The position numbers and the translations under genes were made by a program. Below are positions 3,245 through 23,547 of a stretch of DNA of 24,000 nt, one piece after another (positions within the stretch are counted from its first letter, which is position 1; each line of letters opens with the position of its first letter). Where the stretch lies: the NCBI GenBank assembly GCA_021774435.1, contig JAJFJB010000257.1:168-24167 (forward strand). The letters are read 5' to 3'. The notes below the pieces were generated by a model. That model saw only the letters and a list, made by a program, of their open reading frames with translations. It was not told where the DNA came from and made no database searches. The DNA comes from Alphaproteobacteria bacterium (GTDB lineage: Bacteria; Pseudomonadota; Alphaproteobacteria; UBA8366; GCA-2717185).

Positions 3245-3745
3245 ATGTCTGACACATTAAGGACTACATACTTTTCCGCCTTGCATGACGAAGCCTATGC
3301 GTTACTCGTCGAAGCGCGCAACTATATCGTAGCGCTCCGCCTGCAGGGAAATGACGGTTCTCAAAAGAATAGCGATTACCTGGATGTCACATTGGAGACA
3401 ATGCGACTTACGACCCGGCTAACCCAGGTCATGGCCTGGATCTTGGCCCAAAAAGCGGTACAGAACGACGAAATTTCCCCTGAGGAGGGTGCGTCAAAGC
3501 GCTATCGTCTATCTGGTCAGACGGTATGCATGGACAATGTGTCAGGGCAATCGGCGCATTTGCCACCCTATCTTCGCGATCTCATGGCGCGGAGTTATGA
3601 CTTATATTGCCGTGTCGACCGATTGGAACATCAGATCTGCAATCGGTTGAAATCCGGTGCGTTAGAAGCAAATAGCGTCCTACCGGAAGGACCCTACTTG
3701 CGGCCAGTTAGGACTTCAGACCAAAACCCTCAAACCGCTTGTTGA
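3245..3745 (+). CDS. rcdA: RcdA-like protein (regulator of CtrA degradation, DUF1465 family)
   Basis: Core [31 protein letters not shown]...RYRL matches my recollection of the conserved core of Caulobacter RcdA (..MRLTTRLMQ..W..QRAV..). Size (166 aa) also fits. Confidence 0.75.
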
Positions 3746-3932
3746 ACTTGGCGAGCTGACCGCCAGAGTCGATCAAGCGATGCACACCCGTCCAAGCGGG
3801 ATGCGACGTCGGGTCGATATCGAGTTTCATCGTGGCACCCGGCTCGCCCCAGGTCGAACGGGTTTTATAGGTCGTACCATCCGTCATTTCGATGGTGATT
3901 TCATGATAAACGGGATGGATGTCTTTCTTCAC
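3708..3932 (-). CDS. rpmE: 50S ribosomal protein L31 (Cys-less, non-zinc form)
   Basis: [27 protein letters not shown]...HPAWTG...[13 protein letters not shown] start with AGGAG 8 nt upstream. There are no CxxC motifs. Confidence 0.95.
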
Positions 3933-3962
3933 GATCTTACTCCTGGTGGAAGGCGTGCGCGG

Positions 3963-3991
3963 GTATAACCGAAACCTGCCCCTGAACGCAA
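3963..3991 (-). promoter_or_regulatory. candidate sigma70-type promoter of rpmE
   Basis: Minus-strand TTGCGT (3986..3991)-N17-TTATAC (3963..3968), in the 77-nt gap after the upstream gene. Confidence 0.3.
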
Positions 3992-4009
3992 GTGGTTAAG
4001 CTAATACCT

Positions 4010-5275
4010 CTAGCGCTGATCGAGCTTTAGTTCGATGCGGCGGTTGCGACGATAAGCGAATTCGTCATTGCGCGGATCAAGGGGCTGAAACTCGCCAAAT
4101 CCGGCGGCGGCAAACCGGCTTGCTGGAATTCCTTGCGATGCGAGAAATTTTACCACGGATATCGCTCGCGCGGTGGATAGTTCCCAGTTCGACGGAAACC
4201 GGCGCGTCTTGATGGGCACACGGTCCGTATGTCCGTCAACACGAAGGATCCAATTGATATCAGACGGAATTTTACGCGTGATTTCGAGCAGCGTTTTTCC
4301 GAGCTTCGCCATTTGCAATTTTCCAATTGGCGCTAATTCGTCCGACCCCGATGCAAAAAGCACCTCCGATTGAAACACGAAACGATCGCCAACGATTTGA
4401 ATATCACGGCGATTGCCAAGCACCTGCCGCAACCGGCCAAAGAACTCGGAACGGTACCGTGCGAGTTCTTGCACCTTGCTCGCCAAGGCTGCATTCAGTC
4501 TTTGCCCCAAATTCGCAATTTTAACTTGCGATTCCTTATCGCGGACTTCCGAAGCCTCTAGCGCCTCGTTCAGCGTCGCCACCTGTCGGCGCAGGGCTGC
4601 GAGTTGCCGATTCAACAACGCGACCTGCGCTTTAGCTGCCAAAGAAATCTTGCGCTCTTCGCCGAGCGACTTTGCGCTCGACTCGGCATCCCGAACCGCC
4701 TTGTCGACGCGCTTTGTCAGTTCGTCACGCAGGGCCTGCAACGCGACGATATCTTGCTGAAGCGAGGCAAGTTTCTTCAGTTGAACTTCGATCTTCTCCT
4801 TATCGACGGAAATCGTTCTATTCGCATCTTCGAGGTTCTTATAAGTATTTTCCAATTCTCCGGACAAAGCCCCGCGTTCCGCAATGAGCGCATCACGTTC
4901 CGCTCGAACGTCCACCAGATCCGCCTGCACCGTTTTGAGGCTTTCCTGCACACCAAGCAGCGTACTGAGTTGCGTCGACAAATTGTCCCGTTCGGCTAGG
5001 GAGCTTTGCAACTCCGCTGATATCTGAGCCACATTGTTGCGAAGGTCGCGGCTTGCCCTCCGCTCAAGCGATAGCAACTCGGCTAACTCTGAGATTTGTG
5101 CATTCAGCTTGTCGAGCGCGCGGTCTCGGCCGACCAGCGCATCATTGAGGTAAAATTGCGCGACGACGAAGATCATCAACAGGAATATGATCACCATCAG
5201 CAACGTCGCCAGAGCGTCGACAAATCCGGGCCAAATATTCACGGCACTGCGACCCCGACGGGCTTGAGCCAACAT
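4010..5275 (-). CDS. MotB-type stator B subunit: N-terminal Asp-bearing TM helix, ~230-aa coiled coil, C-terminal OmpA/MotB peptidoglycan-binding domain
   Basis: NIWPGFVD(20)ALATLLMVIIFLLMIFVV parallels TolR TPFVDVMLVLLIVFMV in this window. Residues ~50-280 are heptad-like and rich in L/A/E/R/Q. C-terminal RVDGHTDRVP...SNWELSTARAISV...RRNRRIELK is an OmpA_C-like domain. Confidence 0.85.
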   Translation of the reverse strand: MLAQARRGRSAVNIWPGFVDALATLLMVIIFLLMIFVVAQFYLNDALVGRDRALDKLNAQISELAELLSLERRASRDLRNNVAQISAELQSSLAERDNLSTQLSTLLGVQESLKTVQADLVDVRAERDALIAERGALSGELENTYKNLEDANRTISVDKEKIEVQLKKLASLQQDIVALQALRDELTKRVDKAVRDAESSAKSLGEERKISLAAKAQVALLNRQLAALRRQVATLNEALEASEVRDKESQVKIANLGQRLNAALASKVQELARYRSEFFGRLRQVLGNRRDIQIVGDRFVFQSEVLFASGSDELAPIGKLQMAKLGKTLLEITRKIPSDINWILRVDGHTDRVPIKTRRFPSNWELSTARAISVVKFLASQGIPASRFAAAGFGEFQPLDPRNDEFAYRRNRRIELKLDQR

Positions 5276-5326
5276 CGGTCAGCGCCCTTTACCGCGTATC
5301 GCGTTATTCACGCCAAGCTCCCAAAT

Positions 5327-6484
5327 TTATCGCTCAGGTTCTTCAGCCAGGGCCGCAATGGTACGCGCCAACAACCTGATTTCACTGCGAATTTCCTGAA
5401 CCGTATCGGCCCGGCCAGGCGCCATATCATCATGAATGCGGCTCAAATAGGCCTCGATATTGCGAAGATAGGCCTGCGTGACTTCATCGGAGCCAGAGCG
5501 GCCTTCAGCTTCCGCTAGCTTTGCTAGAACCGGTGTCAGTTCCGACTGGCTTTCCGCAAGCTTCATCATCAGCTTTTGTTCCGTCGCCATCTGGTTCGAC
5601 AGGGCACCGATACGTTCCGTCAGCTCATAAATATTACGGCTGTAGTCGGTCCTATTCTCTTCACTTCGCGCCATCGCCCGCTGCATGCCTTCCAGACCGT
5701 CGGCGGTCTGCTCCAGCAGTGCCTGAATGTACGCCGGAACCGACTGGTCGCCGCCCTCTATACCGCCTATCGCACCACTGCCAAGCCGTGTCAGGCTCGA
5801 CAGCCATTCTTCAAGCTCATTGTAGAAACGATTTTGCGCCTGTCCTGCTTGCAGTTCCAAAAAACCCAGGACGAGTGAACCCGCAAGGCCAAACAAGGAG
5901 GAGCTGAATGCCGTTCCCATGCCCGAAATTGGCGCCTGCAGTCCTTGCTTCAAATCGTTAAAGGCGGCGTTCAGATCGTTGCCGGCGATATTCAGGCCAC
6001 CAACGACGCTGCCTACCGCTTGTACGGTTTCCAACAAGCCCCAGAAGGTCCCGAGCAACCCCAGGAAGACCAGTAGCCCGATCATGTAACGGGAAATTTC
6101 CCGGCTCTCGTCCAAGCGTGCCGCGATGCCGTCCAACAACGTTCGCATGGCAACCGTCGACAAGCTGATCCGTTCGGAACTTTCGCCAAGCATCGTTGCC
6201 ATCGGCGCCAGAAGGCGGGGCGTGGCCGCACCGGTGACGACCATGCTTTCCCGGCGAAAACTCTCAATCCATACAATTTCACTGCGCAGCATCGTTACCG
6301 TTCTAAAGGCGTGGATGATGCCAATTAGCAAAACGCCAAGAATGACACCATTCAGGACGGTATTTGCTACAAACGCTGCCCGCAATGCCGGGAATAACAG
6401 GGCAACTGTCGCCGCGACAACAGCTAGAAAGAATGCCATGCGCGTGAGGAAACGCGAGGGCTGAGACACGCGCTGTACCTCCAT
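5327..6484 (-). CDS. MotA/TolQ/ExbB-family proton-channel protein with a ~160-aa helical C-terminal tail
   Basis: Four hydrophobic helices in MotA order. Channel-core motifs LGLLGTFWGLLETV and GMGTAFSSSLFGLAGSLVLGF parallel TolQ FIGLFGTVYGIMNSF / ALFATALGLVAAIP. I prefer the ATG at 6484 (GGAG 6 nt upstream) over the TTG at 6499 used by the ORF track. Confidence 0.85.
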   Translation of the reverse strand: MEVQRVSQPSRFLTRMAFFLAVVAATVALLFPALRAAFVANTVLNGVILGVLLIGIIHAFRTVTMLRSEIVWIESFRRESMVVTGAATPRLLAPMATMLGESSERISLSTVAMRTLLDGIAARLDESREISRYMIGLLVFLGLLGTFWGLLETVQAVGSVVGGLNIAGNDLNAAFNDLKQGLQAPISGMGTAFSSSLFGLAGSLVLGFLELQAGQAQNRFYNELEEWLSSLTRLGSGAIGGIEGGDQSVPAYIQALLEQTADGLEGMQRAMARSEENRTDYSRNIYELTERIGALSNQMATEQKLMMKLAESQSELTPVLAKLAEAEGRSGSDEVTQAYLRNIEAYLSRIHDDMAPGRADTVQEIRSEIRLLARTIAALAEEPER

Positions 6485-6595
6485 CGCAATCTCCGTCAAA
6501 CGCTAGGGGGTGGATCGAATGCCATTATGGCGAATTCAGTGCGAGAGTTAACCGCTTTGATGCATCAACCTGCAAATAAACGCTATCACCGTGAC

Positions 6596-6617
6596 AAAAA
6601 AACGGCCACCCAATGGC
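6596..6617 (-). terminator. weak candidate intrinsic terminator after the Pro-rich OmpA-like gene
   Basis: Minus-strand GCCA-UUGGG-UGGC followed by CG and U7. The stem is only 4 bp, so support is weak. Confidence 0.3.
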
Positions 6618-6673
6618 ATTTACAAGCCAAAGCGCTGTAATTCCACGAAACAAGCGACGACGATCGCCCAATC

Positions 6674-7837
6674 TCATGATTTTGGAATAATCACATCGAC
6701 ACGATCGGCAATTTGGCCGTCGTCTTTCTTACCCAGGGCACGGACATCGATTCGCGTACTGCGAACGCCCTTCTTCATCAAATAGGTCCTCACTGCCAGT
6801 GCCCGGAACAGGGACATCCGGCGTGCCTGACTTGGCGATTCGCTTGAACCGTTTGCATAACCGTGCAGTTGAACACGGATATCTGGATTGCCGCTCATTT
6901 GAGCGACAAGTTTGTCCAGAGCGCCCGCAGCACTCGACGGCAAGTCGGATGAACCGGCATTAAAGCCAACTCGGATCGTGCCATCGGACGTCGTATTCGT
7001 CGGCGGCGTTCGGGCCGCGACCTGAACCGGTTTGGATTTCTTTGCCGCCGGAGGCGGCGGTACGCTGGGTTTGGGCAGCGGTTTACTTGCGGTTGCCGGT
7101 CTTGGTCTTTTCGGAGGAGGTGGAACAGTAGGCCTCACCGGTGGGGCCGGTTTTGCTTTTGGTGGCGGCGGCACGGCTTTCGCCCGCGGCGGACTCGCTT
7201 TCGGCAATACTGGTGGTGGTGGTACAGTGGCGGGTTTCGCCGGCACGCGAACAATCGGCGGCGGCGGTGCGACCTGTCGTTTTGGAGCGATAGGAGGCTT
7301 GATCGTTGGTGCCGTTGCCTTTTTTGGTGCGGGTGTCGCGACCTTAGGCGGTACCGGTGCGGCAACGGGAGGCCGTGCGGTTTGTGTTGCGCGCTTCGGA
7401 ATAGCGGGGGCAGGAGGTACAACAGTCTTGCGTGGCGCGGATGGCGCGGCAGCGACAACTGGCCTTTTCGGCGCCACAGAAGGCGTCACAGGCGCGCGAC
7501 GAGGTGCCGGTGCAGCACGTGTCGCCAATCCCTTCGGTAGGGATATCTGAGATTTCGGTGGCTCTGACGGTGGCGGCAACAATTTGCCCGTTGCCGCCGG
7601 TGCAAGCGGTGTCCGGCCTGAACGCAACATACCAGGCAGTGTCGGTTCAGGCCCTAGTTTTTCAAGCACGCTAAGATCGACGATAACACTCGGCCGGCTC
7701 GCACCAGGCGGAAATACAAAATACTGCTGCTGCGCAACAGCGGGGATCGCCGCCGACAGCAACCCTGCGACCGCCAATCCAAAACGCCACGAAAATATGC
7801 CCCGGCGCCGTCCCAAATTCAGAACACGCTTTTCCAA
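6674..7837 (-). CDS. secreted proline-rich protein with C-terminal OmpA-like domain
   Basis: N-terminal RRR plus hydrophobic core plus AVA-QQ signal-peptide-like region. About 210 aa are P/A/K/V low complexity (PPPPKAKPAPPVRPTVPPPPKRPRP...). C-terminal VGFNAGSSDL...IRVQLHGYA...ARRMSLFRALAVRTYL...RIDVRALG fits the OmpA_C pattern. The start is non-ATG: TTG at 7837 or an in-frame TTG at 7816. Confidence 0.8.
   Translation of the reverse strand: MEKRVLNLGRRRGIFSWRFGLAVAGLLSAAIPAVAQQQYFVFPPGASRPSVIVDLSVLEKLGPEPTLPGMLRSGRTPLAPAATGKLLPPPSEPPKSQISLPKGLATRAAPAPRRAPVTPSVAPKRPVVAAAPSAPRKTVVPPAPAIPKRATQTARPPVAAPVPPKVATPAPKKATAPTIKPPIAPKRQVAPPPPIVRVPAKPATVPPPPVLPKASPPRAKAVPPPPKAKPAPPVRPTVPPPPKRPRPATASKPLPKPSVPPPPAAKKSKPVQVAARTPPTNTTSDGTIRVGFNAGSSDLPSSAAGALDKLVAQMSGNPDIRVQLHGYANGSSESPSQARRMSLFRALAVRTYLMKKGVRSTRIDVRALGKKDDGQIADRVDVIIPKS
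6985..7615 (-). repeat. low-complexity CCN/GCN/AAR-rich coding tract (Pro/Ala/Lys spacer)
   Basis: Iterated PxP, PPPP and APK units in the protein. The mirror image is the Gly-rich shadow ORF 7032..7550. Confidence 0.6.
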
Positions 7838-7926
7838 AATGGAAGCCTATTCATTTCTGTTATTTCACGCACAATGCGCTGTTTTGTTTGCGCCAAGACC
7901 ATAACTCAGGGCTGATCGGTGCACAA

Positions 7927-8748
7927 CTACTTGTCCTTTGTTTCGGCACTACGAAGCAGCTTACGCAGGGGTTGGTGAAGTTGCTCGTTACCGGCACAAA
8001 CATTCGCCGCACCCAGTTCATAACGGCGTCCGCTTACATCGGTGACTTGCCCTCCTGCCTCTCGCACGAGCAATACGCCGGCAGCAACATCCCAAGGGTT
8101 CAAGCCGTTTTCCCAGTATCCGTCATATCGCCCCGCCGCAACATATGCCAAATCCAGTGCCGCCGAACCGAAGCGGCGCACGCCGGCGCACCCGGCCATG
8201 ACACTGCCGAGTTGCCGTAAAAAAAGTGCGTGGCCTGGTCCGTCTTGAATGCCGAGGAACGGGATACCCGTTGCGAAAACGGCCTCACGCATCCGGCCTC
8301 TGCCGGAAACACGAAGCCGTCTGTCATTGATATAAGCGCCCAATCCGCGCTCTGCCCAAAATAGCTCATCCTTGACCGGATCGTAGACAACGCCCGCAAC
8401 TACCTGTCCGTCGCGTTCCAGCGCTATCGAAATACAGAAATGCGGCAAGCCGTGCAGGAAATTCGTCGTCCCATCCAACGGGTCGACGATCCAGCGATGC
8501 CGTTCGTCGCGGCCCTTCGTTTCGCCCGATTCTTCCATGAGCATCCCAAAATCGGGATGCGCCTGACCTAGGGACTCACGCAGAATTTTCTCAGCTCTCG
8601 TATCGGCGCTCGATACGAAGTCCGCGGGCCCTTTGCGGCTGACTTGAAGTTGTTCAACTTCACCAAAGTCACGCACCAGCCGACGTCCGGCCTTATCGGC
8701 TGCCATGGCCATAACGTTGATGATCGCAGATCGCAACGCCATCGGCAT
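7927..8748 (-). CDS. suhB: inositol monophosphatase family protein
   Basis: IMPase signatures EESG, WIVDPLDGTTNF and WDVAAG. Confidence 0.9.
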   Translation of the reverse strand: MPMALRSAIINVMAMAADKAGRRLVRDFGEVEQLQVSRKGPADFVSSADTRAEKILRESLGQAHPDFGMLMEESGETKGRDERHRWIVDPLDGTTNFLHGLPHFCISIALERDGQVVAGVVYDPVKDELFWAERGLGAYINDRRLRVSGRGRMREAVFATGIPFLGIQDGPGHALFLRQLGSVMAGCAGVRRFGSAALDLAYVAAGRYDGYWENGLNPWDVAAGVLLVREAGGQVTDVSGRRYELGAANVCAGNEQLHQPLRKLLRSAETKDK

Positions 8749-8786
8749 TTACCTCTTTATAACTGGACCGTTACGGTCGACCGCGG

Positions 8787-9356
8787 TCAATCCTTCGCGC
8801 GCCCGACATAGGTGGCATCGGCCGTGTTCACCACAATGCGGGTTCCGGCCTCGATATGTGGTGGCACCTGGACGCGGACGCCATTCTCTAGCAAGGCCGG
8901 CTTATAGGAAGACGAGGCTGTCTGCCCTTTTACGACAGGGTCGGCCTCCGAAATTTCCATCGTCACATGTTCCGGCAAAGTCACGCCAATTGGTGATCCT
9001 TCGAACGATTCAATCATGACCACCATGCCGTCCTGCAAAAATTGGGCGGCATCGGGCCCGATAAAATCAATATTCAGCGTGACTTGATCGTAAGTCTCAT
9101 TATCCATGAAAGTGTAATCATCACCGTCCTGGAAGAGGAATTGATTTTCCCGTTGATCCAAACGAACCTGCTCCACAGTTTCCGATGACCGGAACCGTTC
9201 GTTCAATTTGGTACCGTCGCGGATATCCTTAAGCTCGACTTGCAGATACGCGCCGCCCTTTCCTGGCTGCGTGTGCTGGATCTTGATCGCCCGCCAGAGA
9301 CGGTTCTGATGCTCGATCACATTCCCCGGACGAACGGCGTTTCCGTTGATTTTCAT
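8787..9356 (-). CDS. efp: translation elongation factor P
   Basis: [50 protein letters not shown]...; full length, 189 aa. Confidence 0.95.
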
Positions 9357-9389: not shown

Positions 9390-9414
9390 TTTATAGCGGC
9401 TTCCCGTTGTTCAA
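9390..9414 (-). promoter_or_regulatory. candidate promoter of efp
   Basis: Minus-strand TTGAAC(A)-N10-GCTATAAAC resembles the alphaproteobacterial housekeeping consensus TTGACGS-N10-14-GCTANAWC. It overlaps the thiE stop. Confidence 0.3.
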
Positions 9415-10049
9415 GCAATCTCCGCCATCACCTTATTGAACAATTTCACCGCCGAAGCCGGGCCTTCTGGATAGTCCCAGACCCCCGCAACGACGGACAG
9501 GAAATCGGCGCCGGCGGAAATCAGCGTCGTGCAATTGTCAATCGTAATACCGCCGATCGCCACACAAGGTGTCTCCATCATTTCCTGCCACCAGGATAAG
9601 ATCGCCGGATCGGCCCTAAATTTAGGCGTCTTGGTACCGGAATTGAAGAAGGCACCGAACGCGACGTAATCCGCCCCTTTCTCGGCCGCTCGCATCGCAA
9701 GATCGCGAGAATCGTGACAGGTGACACCGACGATCGCATCGTCGCCGACAAACCGCCTGGCATCGTCATAGTCGGCGTCCTGCTGTCCGACATGGACACC
9801 GTCGCAACCCGTTTCGACCGCCAAATCGGGTCTGTCATTCATAATAAAAGCAACGCTTCTGTCTTGCGCGATCGGTCGCAATACATCCGCCGCGCGCCGC
9901 ACGGAATCATCATCGACATCCTTCAGCCGCAACTGCACGCAAGCGACATCATCGGCATCGAGGGCTTCCGCGAGTGTTTCGCCGAACGCCGCCGGCTCAA
10001 AGCGCGGCGGCGTAATCAGATACAGACGGCAACGGTCCTGCGGGGTCAA
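9411..10049 (-). CDS. thiE: thiamine-phosphate synthase
   Basis: RLYLITP start region, DYVAFGAFF and GGIT motifs of ThiE. The TTG start overlaps the fbaB stop (CTTGA). Confidence 0.88.
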
Positions 10050-10966
10050 GCCTTGCCTTGATAGATTTGAGTGATGGTACTCAGCAGCTCAAGCGCTTCA
10101 GCCTTCGGACGCTGGAAGGAGTTACGTCCGATAATCGATCCGGAACCGCCTCCATCGCGAATTTCCCGAATCTCGCTAAGCAGGCCTTCTGTCCCTTTAG
10201 CGGCGCCACCGGAGAAGACGACAATGCGCCGACCGTTGAATGCCGATTGAACGACATGTTCGATTCGCTTTGTCAGGGTCGAAATATCGATACCCTCTGC
10301 CTCGTAAACTTTTCGCGCATCGTCTTGCTCAATATGCGCGGTCGGTGGCTTCACCTTGATGATATGCGCGCCAAGGAGCGCGGCCATGTGGGCCGCGTAC
10401 GCCGTGACATCAATCGCGGACTCGCCTTCCTTGGAAAGGTTGCCACCACGTGGATAGGACCACAGCACGACGGCCAGGCCGACGGATTTGGCTTCCGCCG
10501 CAAGTTCTTGAAATTCCTCCATTAATTCAAACTGGTCATCCGAACCGGGATAGATCGTGAAGCCAACCGCCGAGCAGCCGAGGCGCAGCGCATCATCGAC
10601 CGTTCCGTAGACGGTTTGATCCTTCGACGTCGCATGGCTGTTGGAACTGTTACACTTCAGTATCGTCGGAACGGCGCCCGCAAAGCTATCCGCGCCGGCT
10701 TCCAGTGCACCAAGCGGCGCAGCGTAAGCGGATAAATTCGCATCGACAGCAAGCTGATAGTGATAATGCGGGTCATAGCCGGCCGAATTCTTGGCAAAGC
10801 TGCGTGCAGGACCATGTTCAAACCCTTGATCAACCGGCAGAATTACGAGCTTTCCCGTACCGCCAAGCCGGCCATGCATCAAAATACGAGCGAGGTTGGT
10901 CTTTGTGCCAGGGCAGTCACTTTCGTAGTTCGACAGGATCTTTTTGACTCGCTGCGTAATTCTCAT
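10046..10966 (-). CDS. fbaB: class I fructose-bisphosphate aldolase, DhnA/FbaB type
   Basis: [22 protein letters not shown] and the HIIKVKPP Schiff-base-lysine region resemble E. coli FbaB. I prefer the ATG at 10966 (AGGAG 8 nt upstream) over the TTG at 10999. Confidence 0.85.
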
Positions 10967-11089
10967 CTCGGCGGCTCCTATTTGCGGTTTCGGAGTCAAT
11001 ACTCGACGAATACCAATAATTCAATAAACAGCGCGCAATTCGGCGCAAATTTGACTGCTCGACTATAGCACCTTCGATGTTACGATGGG

Positions 11090-11554
11090 TTGATGATGAA
11101 AAAAGAAAACCAGCCCACCGAAGACGAACTGTCGATGTACGACGAGTACGGCGCAGAAGAAACCGTCGAAGCGCATACGCCTTTTGTGAAATTCGTCGGT
11201 TACGTCATGATTGCGCAAACGCTGGGCCTGCTCGGCTGTATCGCCGTTTACGACCAATATGGTGATATCGAGGGTGTACAGGGCATCATGCTCGCCTCCG
11301 GCATGATATTCGCGATTGGGATGGCCACGGCTCTCGCATCTTATGTGATCTTCCGAAACGTTATCGCCATGTCAAACGAGTCGATTGCAATGCGAGAGCA
11401 AGCGGAAGAGGACGAATACCGCCTAAATTTGGCACGGGGAAAGAACGCGGAAGCGATGAAACGCGCGAAAAACGGGTTCAAACTGTTGAACTTCTCCGGC
11501 GTCTGTTTCGTCGCCAGTGTCTTGATCGGCGTCAGCGGCCTGTTTTCTCTCTGA
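11090..11554 (+). CDS. hypothetical membrane protein (acidic N-terminus, 3 predicted TM helices)
   Basis: ORF with hydrophobic segments FVGYVMIAQTLGLLGCIAVY, IMLASGMIFAIGMATALASYVIF and FSGVCFVASVLIGVSGLFSL. I recognise no family. Three tandem ATGs at the start. Confidence 0.55.
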   Translation: MMMKKENQPTEDELSMYDEYGAEETVEAHTPFVKFVGYVMIAQTLGLLGCIAVYDQYGDIEGVQGIMLASGMIFAIGMATALASYVIFRNVIAMSNESIAMREQAEEDEYRLNLARGKNAEAMKRAKNGFKLLNFSGVCFVASVLIGVSGLFSL

Positions 11555-11570
11555 ACATTTGCTATCGCGT

Positions 11571-12020
11571 TCAGGACAGGCTTTGAAGATGTGCCAAATT
11601 CGCTTCGCGCAATTCCGATTCTTCCAAACCAAGATCATAAGCCGGTGAAAGAATGAACTCAGTCGCGGTTATCGAGATTTCAATAATGCCTGCGAACTTA
11701 TCCATGTAATCGGACCATTTTTCTGCAAATGCACCCTGTTGTGTCTCGGATAGCTGGGAATTTCGCAAATACTTTGCCGTGCCTGAAACCCGGACCGCTT
11801 TGCGTGCCAGAACATCGATGAAACACACTTCCGTGTTAGGCCGCTTCCCGATATTGCCTATCGTTCCCGGCGACCGCAGATTTCCGAATGCAATCGTTTT
11901 GTCGTCCAAAATCACAAATGTTGCCTTGGGGGATACCGATGGCGAACCGTCATCATTTATCGTCGCGACCATTCCGGCGCTGTGCTCGCTGATAAGCTTC
12001 CTCATCTCTTGAGTCAGCAT
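11571..12020 (-). CDS. pyridoxamine 5'-phosphate oxidase-family (FMN-binding split-barrel) protein
   Basis: AGMVATINDDGSPSVSPKATFVILDDKTIAFGNLRSPGTIGNIGKRPNTEVCFID fits the PNPOx-like / general-stress-protein-26-like pattern. Confidence 0.7.
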   Translation of the reverse strand: MLTQEMRKLISEHSAGMVATINDDGSPSVSPKATFVILDDKTIAFGNLRSPGTIGNIGKRPNTEVCFIDVLARKAVRVSGTAKYLRNSQLSETQQGAFAEKWSDYMDKFAGIIEISITATEFILSPAYDLGLEESELREANLAHLQSLS

Positions 12021-12059
12021 GGCGCATCTCCCTTCGTAACAAATAGCGTTGAACCGAGA

Positions 12060-12554
12060 CTACTCACAGGAATTTTTTAGCCACGTTCGGCACGCCGCAT
12101 CCAATATTGCGACATCATCCACATCGGATTCCAGTTCAATTGTATCCGGCCTTTCCGTTAAAACCGAAGCTTCATAGCCTTCGGCTATTTCTTCGATCTC
12201 TCGCTGGTTGGGGCCGCTGTAGCGAATAAATTTGAAACCATGCCGAAGTGCGGCCAGGGCATGCCCCGGCGCGTCGCCGCAATCCAATACGGCGGCAACA
12301 CTGACGCTCGGATATGCATCGCGGGCGAGGGACACTACTGCGTCAAACCAGCCGGCGCCAACATTCGCCGCAGCACCTGGAGCGCTCATCAACGTAACAG
12401 GGGTTTCGAGGGCCTCAGCTGCGGCAAGTGCAGCCTTGGCCTGGACAAGGCTTATAACCGTGACCGCTTTGCCAATCGGCTTCAGATAAGTTTCCCCATC
12501 GCCACGGCGGTGTCCGACATCCGGTTGGAGAAGCCCCATTCGTTGTCGTACCAC
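12060..12554 (-). CDS. hypothetical protein; start uncertain (ATG 12554 overlaps gap by 73 nt; next ATG at 12389)
   Basis: Long ORF with protein-like composition from about [34 protein letters not shown] onward. I recognise no family. Confidence 0.5.
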
Positions 12555-13489
12555 GACAGGACGCGTACGAGTTTACCGTCAATGACCTGCGTTTGCGTGA
12601 GATCGAAGGTCGAGCTCGCTTGATTATGATTAAAATCACACGAGACGAGCGGTTTATCGTTCGTTTCGAGAACACCTTTTAGCGCGCCGCCAGCAGCCTG
12701 CTGAATGGCACCATTGATTTCCGCTGCATCCGTTTCCCGAGACGCATCGAACTTCAAATCGATCAGGGAAACGTTTGGCGTCGGCACGCGGATCGATGTG
12801 CCGTCAAGTTTACCGGCTAGTTCCGGAAGGACCAGTCCCACGGCTTTCGCGGCGCCGGTCGACGTCGGAATAAGCGATTGCGAGGCCGATCGTGCGCGTC
12901 GAAGATCGGAATGCAGCGTATCGACGGTCGCCTGATCGCCGGTGAAAGCATGCACAGTGGTCATAAACCCGCGATCGATCCCGACTGCCTGGTGCAGCAC
13001 ATGCGCAACCGGCGCAAGACAGTTTGTCGTGCAGGAAGCATTTGATACCACAGTGTGTTCAGCAGTCAGTTGATCGCTGTTGACGCCGTAAACAACTGTC
13101 AGGTCAGCTCCCGTCGCCGGAGCCGATACGAGAACCCGTTTTGCGCCAGCTTCAAGATGCATGGCGGCCTGCTCACGCGTGGTGAAAATGCCCGTGCACT
13201 CAAACGCGATGTCGACGCCAAGTTCACCCCAGGGAAGTTTTTTCGGATCGCGCTCGGCGGTAACCTTGATTTTCCCGCGTCCCAGATCCATCCAATCTTC
13301 ACCGGATGATACTTCGCCCGGAAATGTTCCATGCACGGAATCATACTTCACGAGATGCGCGTTGGTATCGACCGGCCCCAAATCATTGACGCCAACGAAT
13401 TCGATATCGTCACGCCCGGACTCCATCGCGGCGCGAAGCACCAATCGTCCAATTCGCCCAAAGCCGTTGATTGCAACCCGAACTGCCAT
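12482..13489 (-). CDS. gap: glyceraldehyde-3-phosphate dehydrogenase
   Basis: [12 protein letters not shown]-binding motif and active-site [12 protein letters not shown]. Confidence 0.95.
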
Positions 13490-13522
13490 TGATCTTTCTC
13501 CTCGTTCGAAAAAATAGCCGCC

Positions 13523-15526
13523 TTATACGCGATCCCGCGCGGCGTCCGCCACGGCTTTCGCCGTAATTCCAAAATGCTCGTAAAGCGCTGGAGCCGGCGC
13601 CGAAGCCCCGAATTCGGACATGCCAACGAATGCCCCGTTACAGCCTATATAGCGATCCCAACCTTGAGATACAGCCGCTTCGACGGCAACCCGAACCGTA
13701 TTCTTGCCCAAAACCGTCTCCCGATACACAACATCTTGCGCATCGAACAGTTCATGACAGGGCATGGAAACGACCGCGGTACCGATACCATCGGCTTGCA
13801 GAAGGTCCCGGGCCTCACAAGCGAGGCTGACTTCCGATCCGGTGGCAAGCAACGTCACGCGGCGATCCCCATCAGCTTCCGCAAGTATGTAGGCACCGCG
13901 AGAACACTGATTTCCCCCTTCGGCCGTTGACCGTAATGTCGGTACGCCCTGCCGCGTCAATGCCAAGACGGACGGCGTCGAATTGGCTTTCAGCGCCAAA
14001 GCCCAACATTCTGTTGTCTCGACGGCATCGGCGGGCCGGAATACATTCAAATTCGGAATCGCGCGCAAGCTTGCGACCTGTTCGACGGGCTGATGGGTGG
14101 GACCGTCTTCACCAAGACCGATGGAGTCATGCGTCATGACGTAAATGACGCGTTGTCCCATCAACGCCGACAACCGGATCGAAGGGCGGCAATAGTCGGT
14201 AAAAATCAAAAAGGTGCCGCCGTACGGAATGAGACCGCCATGCAAGGCAATACCGTTCATCGCCGCCGCCATACCGTGTTCGCGGACGCCGTAAAAGATA
14301 TAGGAACCGGAATAGTCGCCTGCTTCAACGGGCGACATGCCTGCAGCCTTGGTCAAATTCGACCCTGTCAAATCAGCCGACCCGCCGGCAAGATTGGGAA
14401 TAATGCCAGCAAGCGCATCAAGTGCTTTTTGCGACGCTTGCCGTGTCGCCATTTTCGGCTGCTCCGCGATAACCGCTTCCTTGTAGGTGTCGAACGCCGC
14501 TTCCCAGCCATTGGGCAAGGCGCCGGACAAGGCACTCTCGTAAGATGCCTTCGCATCGGCAGACATGGCGTCCACGCGGGACCGCCATTCATGTCGTCTC
14601 TCAGCGCCGCGGCCACCGACACTGCGCCAGGCCCCAAGCACATCATTGGGCACAACAAAGGGATCGTATGGCCAATCCAATTCGTTTCGGGTCGCGGCGA
14701 TTTCGTCCGCACCGAGCGGTGCGCCGTGAGTGCCAGCGGTGCCTTGCTTGTTCGGTGATCCGTAACCGATCACGGTGCGGCATGCGATCAGGGAAGGGCG
14801 GTCACTCGTGCGTGCCGTTTCTAACGCAGCGAAAATTGCTTCCGGATCGTGCCCATCGATGCGAGTAGCCTCCCAACCACAAGCCTCAAAGCGCGCTATT
14901 TGATCGTCTCGAACGGACAAATCAGTCGGACCATCGATCGAAATCTCATTGTCGTCGAAAAGAACGATCAGTTTTCCAAGGCCCAAATGTCCTGCCAAGG
15001 ACGCGGCTTCGTGACTGATGCCCTCCATAAGGCAACCATCCCCTGCGAACACATAGGTATGATGGTCGACGACCTCGGAACCGTACCGTGCGGCCAGCAT
15101 CCGCTCGGCGAGCGCCATACCAACAGCAGTGCCAATACCTTGCCCCAACGGGCCGGTGGTCGTTTCGATCCCCTGTGCGTGTCCAAATTCAGGATGGCCC
15201 GCGGTCCTGCTACCCAACTGCCGAAAATTTCGGATCTGATCAATATCCATATCCGGATATCCAGTCAGATGGAGCAGTGAATACAAAAGCATCGACCCAT
15301 GCCCGTTCGACAGGACAAAACGGTCCCGGTCTGGCCATTGGGCGTCCGACGCATCGAACTTGAGAAAATCCTTGAAGAGAACCGTTGCAATATCCGCCAT
15401 GCCCATGGGCATGCCCGGATGCCCACTGTTGGCGGCCTGAACCGCGTCCATGGATAGGGCGCGAATCGCATTGGCCATTTGCTTGTGCGTGACGGCTGCT
15501 CCCGTCGGTGGCTCGGCGCGCGTCAT
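13523..15526 (-). CDS. tkt: transketolase
   Basis: [26 protein letters not shown], the [16 protein letters not shown]-binding motif and [16 protein letters not shown]. Confidence 0.95.
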
Positions 15527-20716: not shown

Positions 20717-21318
20717 TTGCGCGGCTTTCCGGCGTCCTTGGTGAAATTGGCGAGGTTTCCGCCATTATCGATGTGGGCGGCGTCGGGTATCTCGTATTCT
20801 GTTCCGGCAGGACGTTGTCGCGAATGCCATCAGTCGGTGAGGCCGTGCGCGTGGAAGTCGAAACGCATGTCCGCGAAGACCATATTCATCTTTATGGCTT
20901 TATCGATGCGGCGGAACGTTCTTGGTTCCGCTTGTTAACGACGGTCCAGGGCGTTGGTGCGCGGGTGGGGCTCGCCATACTTTCGGTTCTGACGGCGGAC
21001 GAACTTGTCCAGGCCATCGCGGCGCAGGATAAAGCGGCGGTCGCGCGGGCGAATGGCGTTGGCCCCAAATTGGCAGCCCGGATTGTCACTGAATTGCGCG
21101 ACAAGGTCGGCGGCATGTCTCTTGGATCGGTCGCCGGCACGGCGGAGACAGTTTCCCCGTCGGTTAACAATGGTGAAGAAGCCATCTCGGCTCTGGTCAA
21201 TCTTGGATACACACGTGGCGATGCCTTCAACGCGATCGCCAAAGCCGGAAAACAATTGGGCGATCAGGCCGCACTTGACGCATTGATCCGGTTCGGACTG
21301 CAGGAAATGTCACAATGA
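20713..21318 (+). CDS. ruvA: Holliday junction DNA helicase subunit RuvA
   Basis: MIARLSGVL...VGGVGYLV...[18 protein letters not shown]...[11 protein letters not shown]; 4-nt overlap with ruvC. Confidence 0.95.
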
Positions 21319-22385
21319 GCGACGCCGCAGATCGTATTGTCACACCGGAAATGGCGGAGTCCGATACCGACGAAGCCTCGCTACGGCCGCAGACCCTGGA
21401 TGATTTTATTGGCCAAAATAACGTACGAGAGAATCTTTCGATCTTTATTCAGGCGGCGCGCGGCAGGAGCGAGGCGCTCGATCATACAATCTTCTTCGGA
21501 CCGCCGGGTTTAGGGAAAACCACGCTGGCCCAAATCGTCGCGCGGGAACTCGGCGTCAGCTTTCGCGCCACCTCCGGCCCGGTGTTAGCGAAGGCCGGTG
21601 ATCTGGCGGCTTTGCTGACCAATCTGCAGCCCCGAGATGTTTTGTTCATCGACGAAATCCATCGGCTGCATCCCGTCGTCGAAGAAATTCTCTACCCTGC
21701 CATGGAGGATTTTCAGCTTGACCTGATCATCGGCGAAGGTCCCGCGGCACGGTCGATCCGCATCGATTTGCCGCCATTCACCCTCGTTGGCGCAACGACG
21801 CGCACGGGACTTATAACCACGCCGCTGCGCGAACGATTTGGCATCCCCCTGCGTATGAACTTCTACGATATCGAGGATTTACAGCGCATCGTAGAGCGAG
21901 GCGCCCGTGTCCTCGATATGGCATTGAGCGGCGACGGCGCGCATGAAATTGCCAAGCGCAGCCGTGGCACGCCACGTATCGCGGGGCGTTTGTTGCGCCG
22001 CGTTCGTGATTTCGCAATGGTCGCAGGACAATCGGAGGTCAACGCGGCATTCGCCGATAACGCATTGCTTCGTTTGGATGTCGACGGCAAGGGGCTCGAC
22101 GCCATGGACCGCCGCTTCCTGCGATGCATGGCGGAAAATTATGGCGGCGGCCCGGTTGGCGCAGAAACGCTGGCCGTCGCGCTAGCGGAACAACGCGACG
22201 CGATCGAAGAAGTGATAGAGCCTTATCTAATACAACAAGGCTTTGTGCAGCGCACCTCGCGGGGCCGGATGTTGACGGCGCAGGGCTGGCGCTATCTAGG
22301 TCTCGAAGCGCCGGCGGCGGCGGCTGTACAACCCGACCTTCTGGATCAGGAGACGGACGGAAGCGCCGGAGAATTAGATGTCTGA
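21315..22385 (+). CDS. ruvB: Holliday junction DNA helicase RuvB
   Basis: [12 protein letters not shown], Walker [18 protein letters not shown] and [17 protein letters not shown]. Confidence 0.97.
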
Positions 22386-22800
22386 TATCGGCGCGACTCA
22401 CGTGTGTCCCGTCCGGGTCTATTACGAAGACACCGATGCAGAAGGTATCGTGTACTACGCGAACTATTTAAAATTCGCCGAGCGCGGACGCACTGAAATG
22501 CTGCGTGCTGCGGGAATCGCACATCCAACGTTGTGGGCAAACCACGGCGTCGGTTTTGCGGTACGCAACATGACGGCGGACTATCTCAAACCGGCGAAGC
22601 TGGACGATGTTCTGGCGGTACACAGCCGTCTAATCAATTTGCGCGGCGCATCTATGTCGGCGGAACAAATCGTCCGACGAGCAGATGAGGATCTCGTACG
22701 TCTTACCGTTCGATTGGCTTGTATCGACAGAAATGGCCGGCCGAAGCGACTACCGGATCTATTCCGCACGGCATTGGATTCGTATCGGCATGATATTTAG
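22378..22800 (+). CDS. ybgC: Tol-Pal-associated acyl-CoA thioesterase YbgC
   Basis: [32 protein letters not shown]. It sits between ruvB (8-nt overlap) and tolQ. Confidence 0.85.
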
Positions 22801-22812
22801 CAAGGAATTTAT

Positions 22813-23544
22813 ATGGACCAGAATTTAATAGAAGCGACGGCGCTAGCCGGATCGGTTGCTGATGTAAACTTTTCGATGTGGTCTTTATTCGTCCAAGCGA
22901 CGTTGATCGTGAAGATCGTACTCATCGCGCTCGTAATTGCATCGATCTGGACATGGGCGATCATTATTGAAAAAGTCTGGCGGTTACGGCGTCTCGGTCG
23001 CGCGGCGGCCGCGTTCGAGGATGAATTCTGGTCCGGCGGAACGCTTGATGGTCTATACGAACAGGTTGGGCAGCGTCCCAAGGACCCCATGTCCGCCGTG
23101 TTTACAGCGGCAATGCGGGAGTGGCGTCGCACGGCGTCGCGCGGGCTGGACCGAAGCCAGCTCTCCCATACCAGTCTGCAGCAACGTATCGACCGCGTCA
23201 TGCAGGTGAGCTTGAGCCGTGAGATGGAACAGCTGGAACGCTACATGACATTTCTTGCATCAGTCGGTTCAACCGCTCCCTTTATTGGACTGTTCGGTAC
23301 GGTTTACGGAATCATGAACAGCTTCCAATCGATTGCGATCACAAAGCAGACGAGTCTAGCGGTCGTCGCTCCCGGGATCGCCGAAGCCTTGTTCGCAACA
23401 GCCTTGGGGCTGGTCGCCGCAATTCCGGCGGTCGTCGCCTACAACAAAATTTCGACAGATCTGAGCCGTTATGCCGGCAGACTGGAAGCATTCGCACATG
23501 AATTCAGCGGCATTCTCTCGCGCCAACTCGAGGAGGCCGAGTGA
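22813..23544 (+). CDS. tolQ: Tol-Pal system protein TolQ
   Basis: Three TM helices; LASVGSTAPFIGLFGTVYGIMNSF and GIAEALFATALGLVAAIPAVVAYN. Confidence 0.93.
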   Translation: MDQNLIEATALAGSVADVNFSMWSLFVQATLIVKIVLIALVIASIWTWAIIIEKVWRLRRLGRAAAAFEDEFWSGGTLDGLYEQVGQRPKDPMSAVFTAAMREWRRTASRGLDRSQLSHTSLQQRIDRVMQVSLSREMEQLERYMTFLASVGSTAPFIGLFGTVYGIMNSFQSIAITKQTSLAVVAPGIAEALFATALGLVAAIPAVVAYNKISTDLSRYAGRLEAFAHEFSGILSRQLEEAE

Positions 23545-23547
23545 ACC

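What the first reader, a model, noticed from the sequence alone, without database searches (positions are those of the whole stretch)
4010..6484. Orphan MotA/MotB-type ion-driven stator pair with long helical extensions on both sides of the membrane
The A subunit (5327..6484) has four TM helices in MotA order. Its channel-core motifs (LGLLGTFWGLLETV, GMGTAFSSSLFGLAGSLVLGF) parallel the genuine TolQ in this same window. A ~160-aa soluble, heptad-like tail follows (…NIYELTERIGALSNQMATEQKLMMKLAESQSELTPVLAKLAEAE…). The B subunit (4010..5275) has a single TM helix carrying the hallmark Asp (WPGFVD20ALATLL). About 230 aa of nearly uninterrupted coiled-coil-type sequence come next, then an OmpA/MotB peptidoglycan-binding domain. 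At about 0.15 nm per residue, a continuous coil of that length would be on the order of 30 nm, roughly the full periplasmic depth. That is unlike the short plug/linker of MotB, TolR or ExbD. No flagellar, chemotaxis, TonB-dependent receptor, Tol-Pal or Zorya partner genes are adjacent. TolQR exists separately at 22813..24000, so this motor has no assigned output. Its position among core genes (rpmE, suhB, efp) suggests a conserved housekeeping or envelope role rather than an accessory one.
Basis: partly seen in the sequence, partly recalled or inferred. Interest (0 to 1): 0.75.

Follow-up and report, generated by a model that had tools for sequence, protein, structure and literature searches.

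The report
Uncharacterised alphaproteobacterial wall-anchored ion motor
Two adjacent genes, usually with a third next to them, encode a proton-channel motor of the MotAB/TolQR/Zorya type that carries long helical extensions and is conserved in the core genome of many Alphaproteobacteria, but I found no published function for it.

Summary
On the minus strand lie A (5327..6484, 385 aa) and B (4010..5275, 421 aa).

- **A** has four transmembrane helices and the TolQ-like channel motifs. A 170-aa helical tail follows, ending in a conserved tip.
- **B** has one transmembrane helix with Asp20, invariant in 146 of 146 orthologues. Then come 246 proline-free residues with strong heptad periodicity and a MotB/PomB-class peptidoglycan-binding domain.
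- **Superfamily.** A's predicted fold matches ExbB, TolQ and ZorA. Its best profile hits are ZorA models, all weak.
- **Named family.** B belongs to NCBIfam PRK09039, named only "peptidoglycan -binding protein".

It has a signal peptide, a conserved N-terminal motif, a proline-rich spacer and an OmpA-like domain. C lies directly upstream of A in 81 of 109 evaluable related loci.

A and B are adjacent in 117 of 120 loci. The order suhB-(C)-A-B-...-rpmE-DUF1465 holds from Rhodospirillales to Sinorhizobium meliloti, where the pair is SMc03993/SMc03992 by gene order.

It is not a flagellar, Tol, Ton or Zorya system by the tests I ran. No paper I could search characterises it.

Best reading: a peptidoglycan-anchored, proton-driven 5:2 motor of unknown output, probably acting on the cell envelope. 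It is a new variant of a known kind, of moderate to high interest.

The parts
5327..6484 (-). Gene A: pentamer-type (MotA/ExbB/TolQ/ZorA superfamily) channel subunit, 385 aa from the ATG; a TTG at 6499 is an alternative start
   Evidence: ORF. Homologues are 380-385 aa. Foldseek matches to ExbB, TolQ and ZorA. PADLOC ZorA1 E 5e-13. Pfam MotA_ExbB E 1.5e-3, below cut-off.
6311..6454 (-). A residues 11-58: N-terminal pair of membrane helices. The N-terminus is probably cytoplasmic by the positive-inside rule.
   Evidence: Hydropathy peaks at 16-34 and 39-57, with 3 K/R before the first helix. Helices in the AlphaFold2 model.
6098..6310 (-). A residues 59-129: cytoplasmic loop with invariant residues (E69, W72, P89, D118-G119, R123-L124-D125-E126, R128)
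   Evidence: Alignment of 44 homologues. The topology is inferred.
5849..6097 (-). A residues 130-212: channel core, i.e. the last two membrane helices with the invariant motifs FLGLLGTF-G and GMGTAFS-SLFGL and a 30-aa periplasmic loop
   Evidence: Translation. Invariant columns. Motif parallel with the window's TolQ.
5330..5848 (-). A residues 213-385: cytoplasmic helical tail. It has a conserved start (QAGQAQNRFYNELEEWLS), a disordered linker and two long helices at 249-326 and 335-381.
   Evidence: AlphaFold2. Heptad periodicity. Tail length held at 234-258 aa from TFWG to the end (5th to 95th percentile of 105 loci).
5342..5401 (-). A residues 362-381: conserved C-terminal tip, VQEIRSEIRLLARTIAALAE
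   Evidence: Translation. A relaxed version of the motif occurs in 132 of 133 related loci and 100 of 128 family representatives, against 0.15% of shuffled controls. It is absent in S. meliloti.
4010..5275 (-). Gene B: dimer-type (MotB-like) subunit, 421 aa, a member of NCBIfam PRK09039
   Evidence: ORF. NF006543 E 3.7e-140, 467.7 bits against a cut-off of 305.
5156..5233 (-). B residues 15-40: membrane helix WPGFVDALATLLMVIIFLLMIFVVAQ, with Asp20 at 5216..5218
   Evidence: Translation. W15, V19, D20 and F31 are invariant in 146 of 146 orthologues.
4406..5143 (-). B residues 45-290: periplasmic coiled-coil-type helix, 246 residues without proline
   Evidence: Periodicity test. AlphaFold2 helices 15-170 and 172-286. 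Length is variable among orthologues.
4013..4402 (-). B residues 292-421: MotB/PomB-class OmpA-like peptidoglycan-binding domain with invariant D347-G-H-T-D351 and N363-x-x-L-S-x-x-R370-A
   Evidence: Pfam OmpA E 4.6e-13. PDB sequence hits to MotB, MotS and PomB. Foldseek hits to the MotB-like protein 3khn, MotS and PomB. Invariant columns.
6674..7837 (-). Gene C: conserved upstream partner, 387 aa. It has a signal peptide ending AVA-QQQ, a mature N-terminal motif, a proline-rich spacer (31% Pro over residues 61-290) and a C-terminal OmpA-like domain (292-373).
   Evidence: ORF. Pfam OmpA E 2.8e-12. Same architecture in orthologues. Directly upstream of A in 81 of 109 evaluable loci.
7652..7687 (-). 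C residues 51-62: conserved motif VIVDLSVLEKLG near the predicted mature N-terminus
   Evidence: Translation. The motif V-x-V-D-x-S-V-L-D-x-L-G occurs in 33 full-length orthologues, always 5-15 residues after an A-x-A-Q site.
6485..6673 (-). C-A spacer with a terminator-like hairpin and T-run (6605..6617) followed by a promoter-like site (6524..6551)
   Evidence: Consensus scan only. These are weak matches.

Best explanation
A and B form a peptidoglycan-anchored, ion-driven (probably proton-driven) motor of the 5:2 class.

**Proposed mechanism.**
- Five A subunits surround two B helices in the inner membrane.
- Protons pass by way of B Asp20 and the polar residues of A's last two membrane helices, T146 and S194-S196.
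- This drives A to move around B.
- B is held to the cell wall by its MotB-class domain at the end of a long, probably dimeric, periplasmic coiled coil.
- A carries a fixed-length helical tail with a conserved tip into the cytoplasm. In layout this resembles the Zorya subunit ZorA.
- C, a secreted protein with a proline-rich spacer and an OmpA-like domain, is a frequent periplasmic partner.

The system is a vertically inherited core-genome feature of Alphaproteobacteria, distinct from the flagellar, Tol-Pal, Ton and Zorya motors. Its most likely field of action is the cell envelope: coupling membrane energy to the wall, or reporting on the wall's state to the cytoplasm.

**Shown here.** Gene structure, domain content, superfamily membership, invariance of the key residues, operon-like linkage, and conservation of gene order.

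**Inferred.** The 5:2 stoichiometry, rotation, the ion used, the topology of the tail, binding of C to the complex, and the envelope role.
For: **A is a 5:2-motor A subunit.**
- Its predicted fold matches ExbB, TolQ, ZorA and PomA. The top 50 Foldseek hits are all such subunits, with probability up to 1.0.
- Profile hits: ZorA1 E 5e-13 and ZorA3 E 2e-12; NCBIfam ZorA_2 E 1e-6; Pfam MotA_ExbB E 1.5e-3.
- The S. meliloti orthologue passes the Pfam cut-off, 23.9 against 22.9 bits.
- The motifs FLGLLGTF-G and GMGTAFS-SLFGL are invariant in 44 homologues.

**B is a MotB-like subunit.**
- Asp20 is invariant in 146 of 146 orthologues.
- The wall-binding domain is of MotB, MotS and PomB type, with the D-GHTD...N-x-x-LS-x-x-RA residues invariant.
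- Heptad periodicity is far above shuffles.

**Linkage and conservation.**
- A and B are adjacent in 117 of 120 evaluable loci. The median gap is 13 nt.
- C is directly upstream in 81 of 109 loci, often with its stop overlapping the A start.
- The gene order is conserved from Rhodospirillales to S. meliloti.
- The family is large: 580 clusters at 50% identity with E below 1e-30.
- A is retained in an AT-rich clade, one locus of which encodes an ATP/ADP translocase. I read that gene as a mark of an intracellular lifestyle.

**Envelope hint.** A fragment bound by ChvI lies inside SMc03993, which is A by gene order (PMC3687685). ChvI is part of an envelope-related two-component system.
Against: - No experiment on this family was found, so the function is entirely inferred.
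- The window's A scores below Pfam's cut-off. Profile comparison with the window's TolQ aligns only 30 columns at 26% probability. A family profile finds no 5:2 motor in the PDB by sequence.
- The structure models are of modest confidence, with pLDDT 62 and 65.
- The coil of B varies from about 150 to 450 residues. This is hard to reconcile with a stiff stator anchor.
- The S. meliloti A tail lacks the conserved tip, and S. meliloti has no C. Neither feature is therefore universal.
- A/B are absent from the stored S. meliloti list of essential genes. 'Housekeeping' does not mean essential there.
- In the AT-rich clade, A occurs without B or C within 6 kb.
Confidence: 0.65

Rival explanations
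1. It works like Tol-Pal or Ton. The A/B motor energises C, which would be the force transducer reaching from the motor to the wall or outer membrane. C's layout resembles TolA and TonB: an N-terminal hydrophobic segment, a short strand-like motif, a proline-rich spacer and a globular C-terminal domain.
For: - C's architecture and its conserved mature N-terminal motif.
- The description of TolA/TonB as a membrane helix, a 'motor box' strand, a proline-rich domain II and a C-terminal domain (PMC12204202).
- B's membrane helix (P-G-F-V-D-A-L-A-T-L-L) resembles that of the window's TolR (T-P-F-V-D-V-M-L-V-L-L).
Against: - C's N-terminal segment looks like a cleaved signal peptide. It is variable, ends in A-x-A-Q in essentially all orthologues, has no conserved His or SHLS motif, and falls below the membrane-helix threshold.
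- B has no ExbD/TolR periplasmic domain for a 'motor box' to dock on.
- C is absent in S. meliloti and in 28 of 109 loci.
Confidence: 0.15
2. It is mainly a static structural element. A coiled-coil periplasmic tether or scaffold is anchored in the inner membrane and the wall, and the channel function is vestigial.
For: - The coil is long and variable in length, and it expands by duplication of modules.
- It gives weak Pfam matches to crescentin and other coiled-coil rods.
- Both B and C have wall-binding domains.
Against: Asp20 and the polar channel residues of A are invariant across very divergent sequences. That is not expected of a vestigial channel.
Confidence: 0.1
3. It is a spare flagellar stator, a MotAB, MotCD or MotPS-type paralogue.
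For: - Sources name homologues 'flagellar motor protein MotA' and 'chemotaxis protein MotB'.
- B's wall-binding domain is closest to MotB, MotS and PomB.
Against: - No NCBIfam flagellar MotA model hits A at all.
- B reaches 97 bits against the MotD cut-off of 283, and only over the OmpA region.
- A's cytoplasmic loop is about 70 residues, and its best profiles are ZorA models.
- There are no flagellar genes in the window.
- Gene order is conserved among translation and metabolic genes.
- It is present in genera such as Belnapia, Paracraurococcus and Crenalkalicoccus. To my knowledge these are described as non-motile cocci.
Confidence: 0.05
4. It is a remnant or minimal form of the Zorya anti-phage system.
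For: The best profile matches of A are ZorA models, and ZorB3 is one of B's two best-scoring profile families. A has a C-terminal cytoplasmic helical tail, as ZorA does (PMC11946911).
Against: - No ZorC, D, E, F or G-like gene is adjacent.
- NCBIfam ZorA scores are far below cut-off, 28 against 100 bits.
- The tail is about 170 aa. The ZorA tail runs over residues 223-729.
- The locus is a conserved core-genome position across orders, not a variable island.
Confidence: 0.03

Closest known systems
Zorya ZorA-ZorB motor (ZorA5B2; PDB 8QYD, 8VVN)
   Same: - The A subunit has a C-terminal helical tail after the last membrane helix.
- The B subunit has an N-terminal membrane helix with the essential Asp and a C-terminal peptidoglycan-binding domain, and no obvious MotB-type plug.
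- ZorA profiles are the best sequence matches of A.
- ZorA gives the highest sequence identity among the fold matches, 20%.
- The polar pair T146 / S194-196 parallels ZorA Thr147 / Ser184.
   Different: - There are no ZorC/D effector genes.
- It is a core-genome locus, not a defence island.
- The tail is about 170 aa rather than about 500.
- A has an extra N-terminal membrane helix, four in all.
- B carries a coil of 150 to 450 residues between the membrane and the wall-binding domain, which ZorB lacks.
- The scores are far below the family cut-offs.
Flagellar stators MotAB, PomAB and MotPS
   Same: - A has four membrane helices in the same order as MotA.
- B has a membrane Asp near the cytoplasmic end and a MotB-class extended OmpA-like domain.
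- The A and B genes are adjacent.
   Different: - A has no large rotor-facing cytoplasmic domain.
- B has no plug-and-linker segment.
- There is no flagellar gene context.
- None of the curated flagellar models is passed.
TolQ-TolR and ExbB-ExbD
   Same: - The channel motifs of A parallel TolQ in the same window.
- B's membrane helix resembles TolR's.
- ExbB and TolQ are the top fold matches.
   Different: - B has no ExbD/TolR domain and has an OmpA-like domain instead.
- No TolA/TonB-type anchored partner is present.
- A genuine ruvB-ybgC-tolQ-tolR cluster is present separately.
NCBIfam PRK09039 'peptidoglycan -binding protein' (NF006542 to NF006546)
   Same: B passes the NF006543 cut-off. 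The S. meliloti orthologue matches NF006544 end to end.
   Different: - The family name says nothing about function.
- The window's B has about 75 more coil residues than the 342-350-aa models, so it aligns in two pieces.

Membership tests
MotA/TolQ/ExbB superfamily (A subunits of 5:2 motors; Pfam PF01618) | Match to the Pfam profile at or above the gathering score | tested here: inconclusive
   The window's A scores 18.7 bits against a cut-off of 22.9. The S. meliloti orthologue scores 23.9 and passes. Two other family members score 16-17 bits.
MotA/TolQ/ExbB superfamily (A subunits of 5:2 motors; Pfam PF01618) | Fold of the membrane core | tested here: met
   All 50 best Foldseek PDB matches are ExbB, TolQ, ZorA, PomA or MotA chains. 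The best E-value is 1.5e-3, probability up to 1.0, and TM-score on the target up to 0.63. The model itself has only pLDDT 62.
MotA/TolQ/ExbB superfamily (A subunits of 5:2 motors; Pfam PF01618) | Conserved polar residues in the last two membrane helices facing the B-subunit Asp | tested here: met
   T146, T191, S194 and S196 are invariant in 44 homologues. Their position in three dimensions was not verified.
MotA/TolQ/ExbB superfamily (A subunits of 5:2 motors; Pfam PF01618) | 5:2 assembly with a B-type subunit | not testable with these tools
   No multimer prediction was available. Adjacency of A and B in 117 of 120 loci is only indirect support.
MotB/ZorB-type B subunits | Single N-terminal membrane helix with an invariant Asp near its cytoplasmic end | tested here: met
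   D20 is present in 146 of 146 orthologues. The helix spans residues 15-40.
MotB/ZorB-type B subunits | C-terminal OmpA-like peptidoglycan-binding domain | tested here: met
   Pfam OmpA E 4.6e-13. MotB, MotS and PomB structures match by sequence and by fold. The binding-site residues are invariant. Binding itself was not tested.
Flagellar stator (MotAB/PomAB) | Passes the curated flagellar MotA/MotB models | tested here: not met
   A has no flagellar MotA hit. B scores 97 bits against 283 for MotD, and 64 against 301 for MotB.
Flagellar stator (MotAB/PomAB) | Plug helix and short linker after the B membrane helix | tested here: not met
   The membrane helix runs straight into 246 residues of heptad-periodic helix.
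Flagellar stator (MotAB/PomAB) | Flagellar or chemotaxis gene context | tested here: not met
   None is present in the 24-kb window or in the related loci.
Zorya (ZorAB plus effectors) | Passes the curated ZorA models | tested here: not met
   NCBIfam ZorA_2 gives 28.2 bits against a cut-off of 100, and ZorA_4 gives 17.6 against 500. The PADLOC hits, E 5e-13 at best, cover only part of the profiles.
Zorya (ZorAB plus effectors) | Adjacent zorC/zorD (type I) or zorE/F/G genes | tested here: not met
   The neighbours are suhB, efp, rpmE and DUF1465. C has no PADLOC hit.
TolQR / ExbBD | B subunit with an ExbD/TolR domain (PF02472) | tested here: not met
   B has no such hit. The window's true TolR has it at E 5e-30.
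TolQR / ExbBD | Membrane-anchored TolA/TonB partner with a conserved His motif | tested here: not met
   C's N-terminal segment is a variable signal-peptide-like sequence ending in A-x-A-Q, without a conserved His.
NCBIfam PRK09039 peptidoglycan -binding protein | Score at or above the curated cut-off of an equivalog model | tested here: met
   NF006543 gives 467.7 bits against a cut-off of 305. NF006545 and NF006544 are also passed.

The most novel reading that the evidence does not exclude
The A/B(/C) operon is a housekeeping 5:2 rotary motor of Alphaproteobacteria and the closest cellular relative of Zorya's ZorAB. It is anchored to the wall through a long coiled coil. It would use the proton gradient to turn a short cytoplasmic tail whose conserved tip engages an unknown cytoplasmic partner. 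This would be a constitutive link from envelope to cytoplasm, for sensing or remodelling the wall, from which the phage-sensing Zorya motor may have been derived.
Probability: 0.25. Interest if true: 0.85.

Novelty: new variant of a known kind. Interest (0 to 1): 0.6.

Why it matters
Ion-driven 5:2 motors are known to power flagella, Ton-dependent uptake, Tol-Pal envelope maintenance, gliding and Zorya defence. This would add a further output.

The system is vertically inherited in the core genome of a major bacterial class. It has an architecture not described for the characterised systems:
- a ZorA-like tail on A;
- a long, variable coiled coil on a MotB-like B;
- a proline-rich OmpA-like partner.

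It is genetically tractable in S. meliloti (SMc03993/SMc03992 by gene order) and in Magnetospirillum. A function could therefore be found with standard tools.

It may also bear on where Zorya's motor came from, and on how Alphaproteobacteria organise their envelope. Both links are speculative.

Tried and rejected
- **Rgs polar-growth proteins.** I first suspected the pair might be among the S. meliloti Rgs proteins. The paper shows RgsB, C and D are something else. Only the neighbouring gene rgsF is an Rgs gene.
- **Literature.** Queries covered MotAB-like and Zorya terms, PRK09039, S. meliloti locus tags and guessed Caulobacter locus tags. None found a characterisation. The CenKR and ChvGI regulon papers do not mention the genes.
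- **PDB by sequence.** The A sequence and a family profile found no 5:2 motor.
- **Empty look-ups.** The first metagenome scan, with one divergent protein, found nothing. The exact look-up of B's contig also found nothing. Cluster look-ups gave almost no names.
- **Length co-variation.** I tested whether A-tail length and B-coil length vary together. They do not (Spearman 0.12, p 0.21).
- **Further partner genes.** Clustering all ORFs of 160 loci for other conserved partners found none. The only recurrent extra gene is an oppositely oriented ABC transporter between B and rpmE.


Full report
**Observation.** Three consecutive ORFs lie on the minus strand: C (6674..7837, 387 aa), A (5327..6499 from a TTG, or 5327..6484 from the ATG, 385 aa) and B (4010..5275, 421 aa). 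The ATG start gives the length of the closest homologues, 380-385 aa.

Hydropathy finds membrane helices in A at 16-34, 39-57 and 133-151. The fourth, about 186-210, is Gly/Ser-rich and falls under the threshold. It is helical in the model, and by sequence comparison it lines up with TolQ's last membrane helix. Three positive charges precede the first helix and ten lie in the 58-132 loop. This fits a topology with the N-terminus inside, as in MotA, and the C-terminal tail in the cytoplasm. That topology is an inference.

B has one membrane helix at 15-40. The 'coiled-coil' description passes a test. B residues 45-290 have no proline. Their 3.5-residue hydrophobic periodicity has power 3.70, against 0.21 +/- 0.21 in shuffles, none of 2000 reaching it. 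The A tail also passes. AlphaFold2 gives B as helix from 15 to 286 with a single break at 171, then an OmpA-type fold (pLDDT 65).

**What A is.** By sequence the window's A is only a marginal member of Pfam MotA_ExbB (E 1.5e-3, 18.7 bits, cut-off 22.9). The S. meliloti orthologue passes at 23.9 bits.

- The strongest profile matches are ZorA models: PADLOC ZorA1 E 5e-13, ZorA3 E 2e-12, and NCBIfam ZorA_2 E 1e-6. All are far below family cut-offs.
- The AlphaFold2 model (pLDDT 62) finds only A subunits of 5:2 motors among its 50 best PDB matches. These are ExbB, TolQ, ZorA, PomA and a MotA chimera. ZorA gives the highest identity, 20%.
- Against the genuine TolQ of this window, profile comparison aligns only the FLGLLGTFWG / FIGLFGTVYG helix (30 columns, 26% probability).
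- In 44 homologues the channel motifs, T146, T191, S194 and S196, and a block at the start of the tail (Q212...W227-L228-S229) are invariant.
- After a disordered linker the tail forms two long helices, 249-326 and 335-381.
- The tail ends in the tip VQEIRSEIRLLARTIAALAE. A relaxed form of this motif occurs in 132 of 133 related loci and 100 of 128 family representatives, against 0.15% of shuffled controls.
- The tail is held to 234-258 residues from the TFWG motif to the end (5th to 95th percentile).

**What B is.** B passes the curated NCBIfam equivalog PRK09039.1-2, named only 'peptidoglycan -binding protein' (467.7 bits, cut-off 305).

- Its C-terminal domain matches MotB, MotS, PomB and a MotB-like protein by sequence and by fold.
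- The D347-G-H-T-D351 and N363-x-x-L-S-x-x-R370-A residues are invariant. From general knowledge these make up the peptidoglycan site of OmpA-like domains.
- W15, V19, D20 and F31 of the membrane helix are invariant in 146 of 146 orthologues recovered from 160 loci.
- The helix sequence (PGFVDALATLL) resembles that of the window's TolR (TPFVDVMLVLL) more than the classical MotB motif, which I recall from memory.
- B does not reach any flagellar MotB, MotD or MotS cut-off. No plug-and-linker segment is visible.
- B's length ranges from 325 to 621 aa in 110 orthologues, apart from one 205-aa outlier. One homologue triplicates a coil unit of about 118 aa.
- At 0.15 nm per residue a straight coil would be about 22 to 67 nm long. 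The coil may tilt, fold back at the break near residue 171, or lie along the wall. This is unresolved.

**A third gene.** It has four parts:

- a signal-peptide-like N-terminus ending AVA-QQQ;
- the motif VIVDLSVLEKLG;
- a spacer with 31% proline;
- an OmpA-like domain (Pfam E 2.8e-12).

Orthologues share this layout, including the A-x-A-Q site and the motif V-x-V-D-x-S-V-L-D-x-L-G 5-15 residues after it. In many genomes the C stop overlaps the A start. In this window a 190-nt spacer holds weak terminator-like and promoter-like matches.

**Conservation.** Each protein has at least 8000 homologues, the cap of the word-indexed search. The exhaustive search gives 2827 clusters at 50% identity with E up to 1e-3, and 580 with E below 1e-30.

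Among 160 loci from species-representative genomes and metagenomes:

| Arrangement | Evaluable loci |
|---|---|
| B directly downstream of A | 117 of 120 |
| C directly upstream of A | 81 of 109 |
| suhB upstream on the same strand | 88 of 93 |

The genomes include Magnetospirillum, Roseomonas, Belnapia, Telmatospirillum and many uncultured Rhodospirillales.

An S. meliloti chromosome that is filed among plasmids shows this order: thiE2, rgsF, suhB, A, B, an ABC transporter on the other strand, rpmE, DUF1465. This is the same frame as in the window, so the arrangement predates the split of these orders.

- thiE2 is SMc03996.
- rgsF is SMc03995. It has the same 381-aa length, and its published primer matches the 3' end of the gene.
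- suhB is SMc03994.
- By order, A should therefore be SMc03993 and B SMc03992. This is an inference from numbering.

S. meliloti lacks C, and its A tail lacks the tip.

A divergent AT-rich clade has A without B or C within 6 kb. One example follows ddl-ftsQ. Another lies beside a TLC ATP/ADP translocase gene, which I read as a mark of an intracellular lifestyle.

**Comparison with known systems.**

- *Not a flagellar stator.* There are no model hits, no plug and no flagellar context. It is present in genera that, to my knowledge, are non-motile cocci.
- *Not TolQR or ExbBD.* There is no ExbD domain and no anchored TolA/TonB partner, and a true ruvB-ybgC-tolQ-tolR cluster is present separately.
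- *Not Zorya.* There are no effector genes, the position is in the core genome, the tail is short and the scores are far below cut-off.
- *Closest in layout to ZorAB.* ZorAB is described as a peptidoglycan-binding proton-driven ZorA5B2 motor whose tail carries the signal into the cytoplasm (PMC11946911).
- *Acknowledged but not described.* A 2025 survey of MotAB relatives recognises a heterogeneous group of non-flagellar 'generic ion transporters' with extra domains and unknown functions. It does not describe this family (PMC12505986).

**Mechanism.** The best-supported model has B, as a dimer, fixed to the wall by its MotB-class domain. Protons passing Asp20 drive the A ring around it, and the A tail or the periplasmic parts deliver the output.

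- Shown: domains, invariant residues, gene linkage and synteny.
- Inferred: stoichiometry, rotation, ion, tail location, and any contact with C.

An envelope role is suggested by three things: the two wall-binding domains, the secreted partner, and the ChvI-bound DNA fragment inside SMc03993 (PMC3687685). None of these is proof. The pair does not appear in the stored S. meliloti list of essential genes that includes suhB and rgsF. It is probably not essential there, although the full table was not available.

**Verdict.** It needs three corrections: a partner gene is present, the affinity is to ZorA rather than MotA, and the coil length is variable. The family is annotated only generically, and no functional study was found in the searchable literature. 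It is a new variant of a known kind of machine, of moderate to high interest.

Noticed in passing
window 3245..3745 (+) and 3708..3932 (-): A DUF1465 / RcdA-like gene converges on rpmE and overlaps its 3' end by 38 nt. Its scores are Pfam E 1.3e-26 and NCBIfam RcdA 70 bits, below the cut-off of 170. The DUF1465-rpmE pairing next to B recurs in S. meliloti.
   Followed up: partly
window 6485..6673: The C-A spacer holds a terminator-like hairpin with a T-run (6605..6617) followed by a promoter-like TTAACT-16-CATAAT (6524..6551). In many other genomes the C stop overlaps the A start.
   Followed up: partly
window 3600..8900: There are 18 terminator-like hits against 6.6 +/- 2.3 expected. Four of them are on the plus strand inside the proline-rich part of gene C. 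The 172-aa Gly-rich ORF at 7032..7550 (+) appears to be the antisense shadow of that region.
   Followed up: no
P0240 (B homologue), P0241 and P0308 (A homologues): Both extensions grow by duplication of modules. P0240 (657 aa) repeats a coil unit of about 118 aa three times. P0241 and P0308 (581 and 574 aa) repeat the tail module. A-tail and B-coil lengths do not correlate across loci.
   Followed up: partly
L081 5977..7116; L082 5977..7122: A divergent AT-rich clade has A alone. In L081 it follows murC-murB-ddl-ftsQ, where I would expect ftsA/ftsZ. In L082 it sits beside a TLC ATP/ADP translocase and a patatin-like lipase.
   Followed up: partly
L161 (S. meliloti) 4271..5416 and 6773..8910: rgsF (SMc03995), an essential polar-growth and septum factor with Sel1 repeats, lies two genes upstream of A. 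A ChvI-bound fragment was mapped inside SMc03993, which is A by gene order. In R. leguminosarum the rgsF and suhB orthologues carry locus tags 14 apart (RL4039, RL4025), so the link may be chance.
   Followed up: partly
window 9411..15526 and 21315..24000: The window has housekeeping blocks: transketolase, gap, DeoC/LacD-type aldolase and thiE upstream, and ruvB-ybgC-tolQ-tolR at the end. In S. meliloti tkt2 (SMc03978) carries a locus tag close to thiE2 (SMc03996), which fits extended synteny.
   Followed up: no
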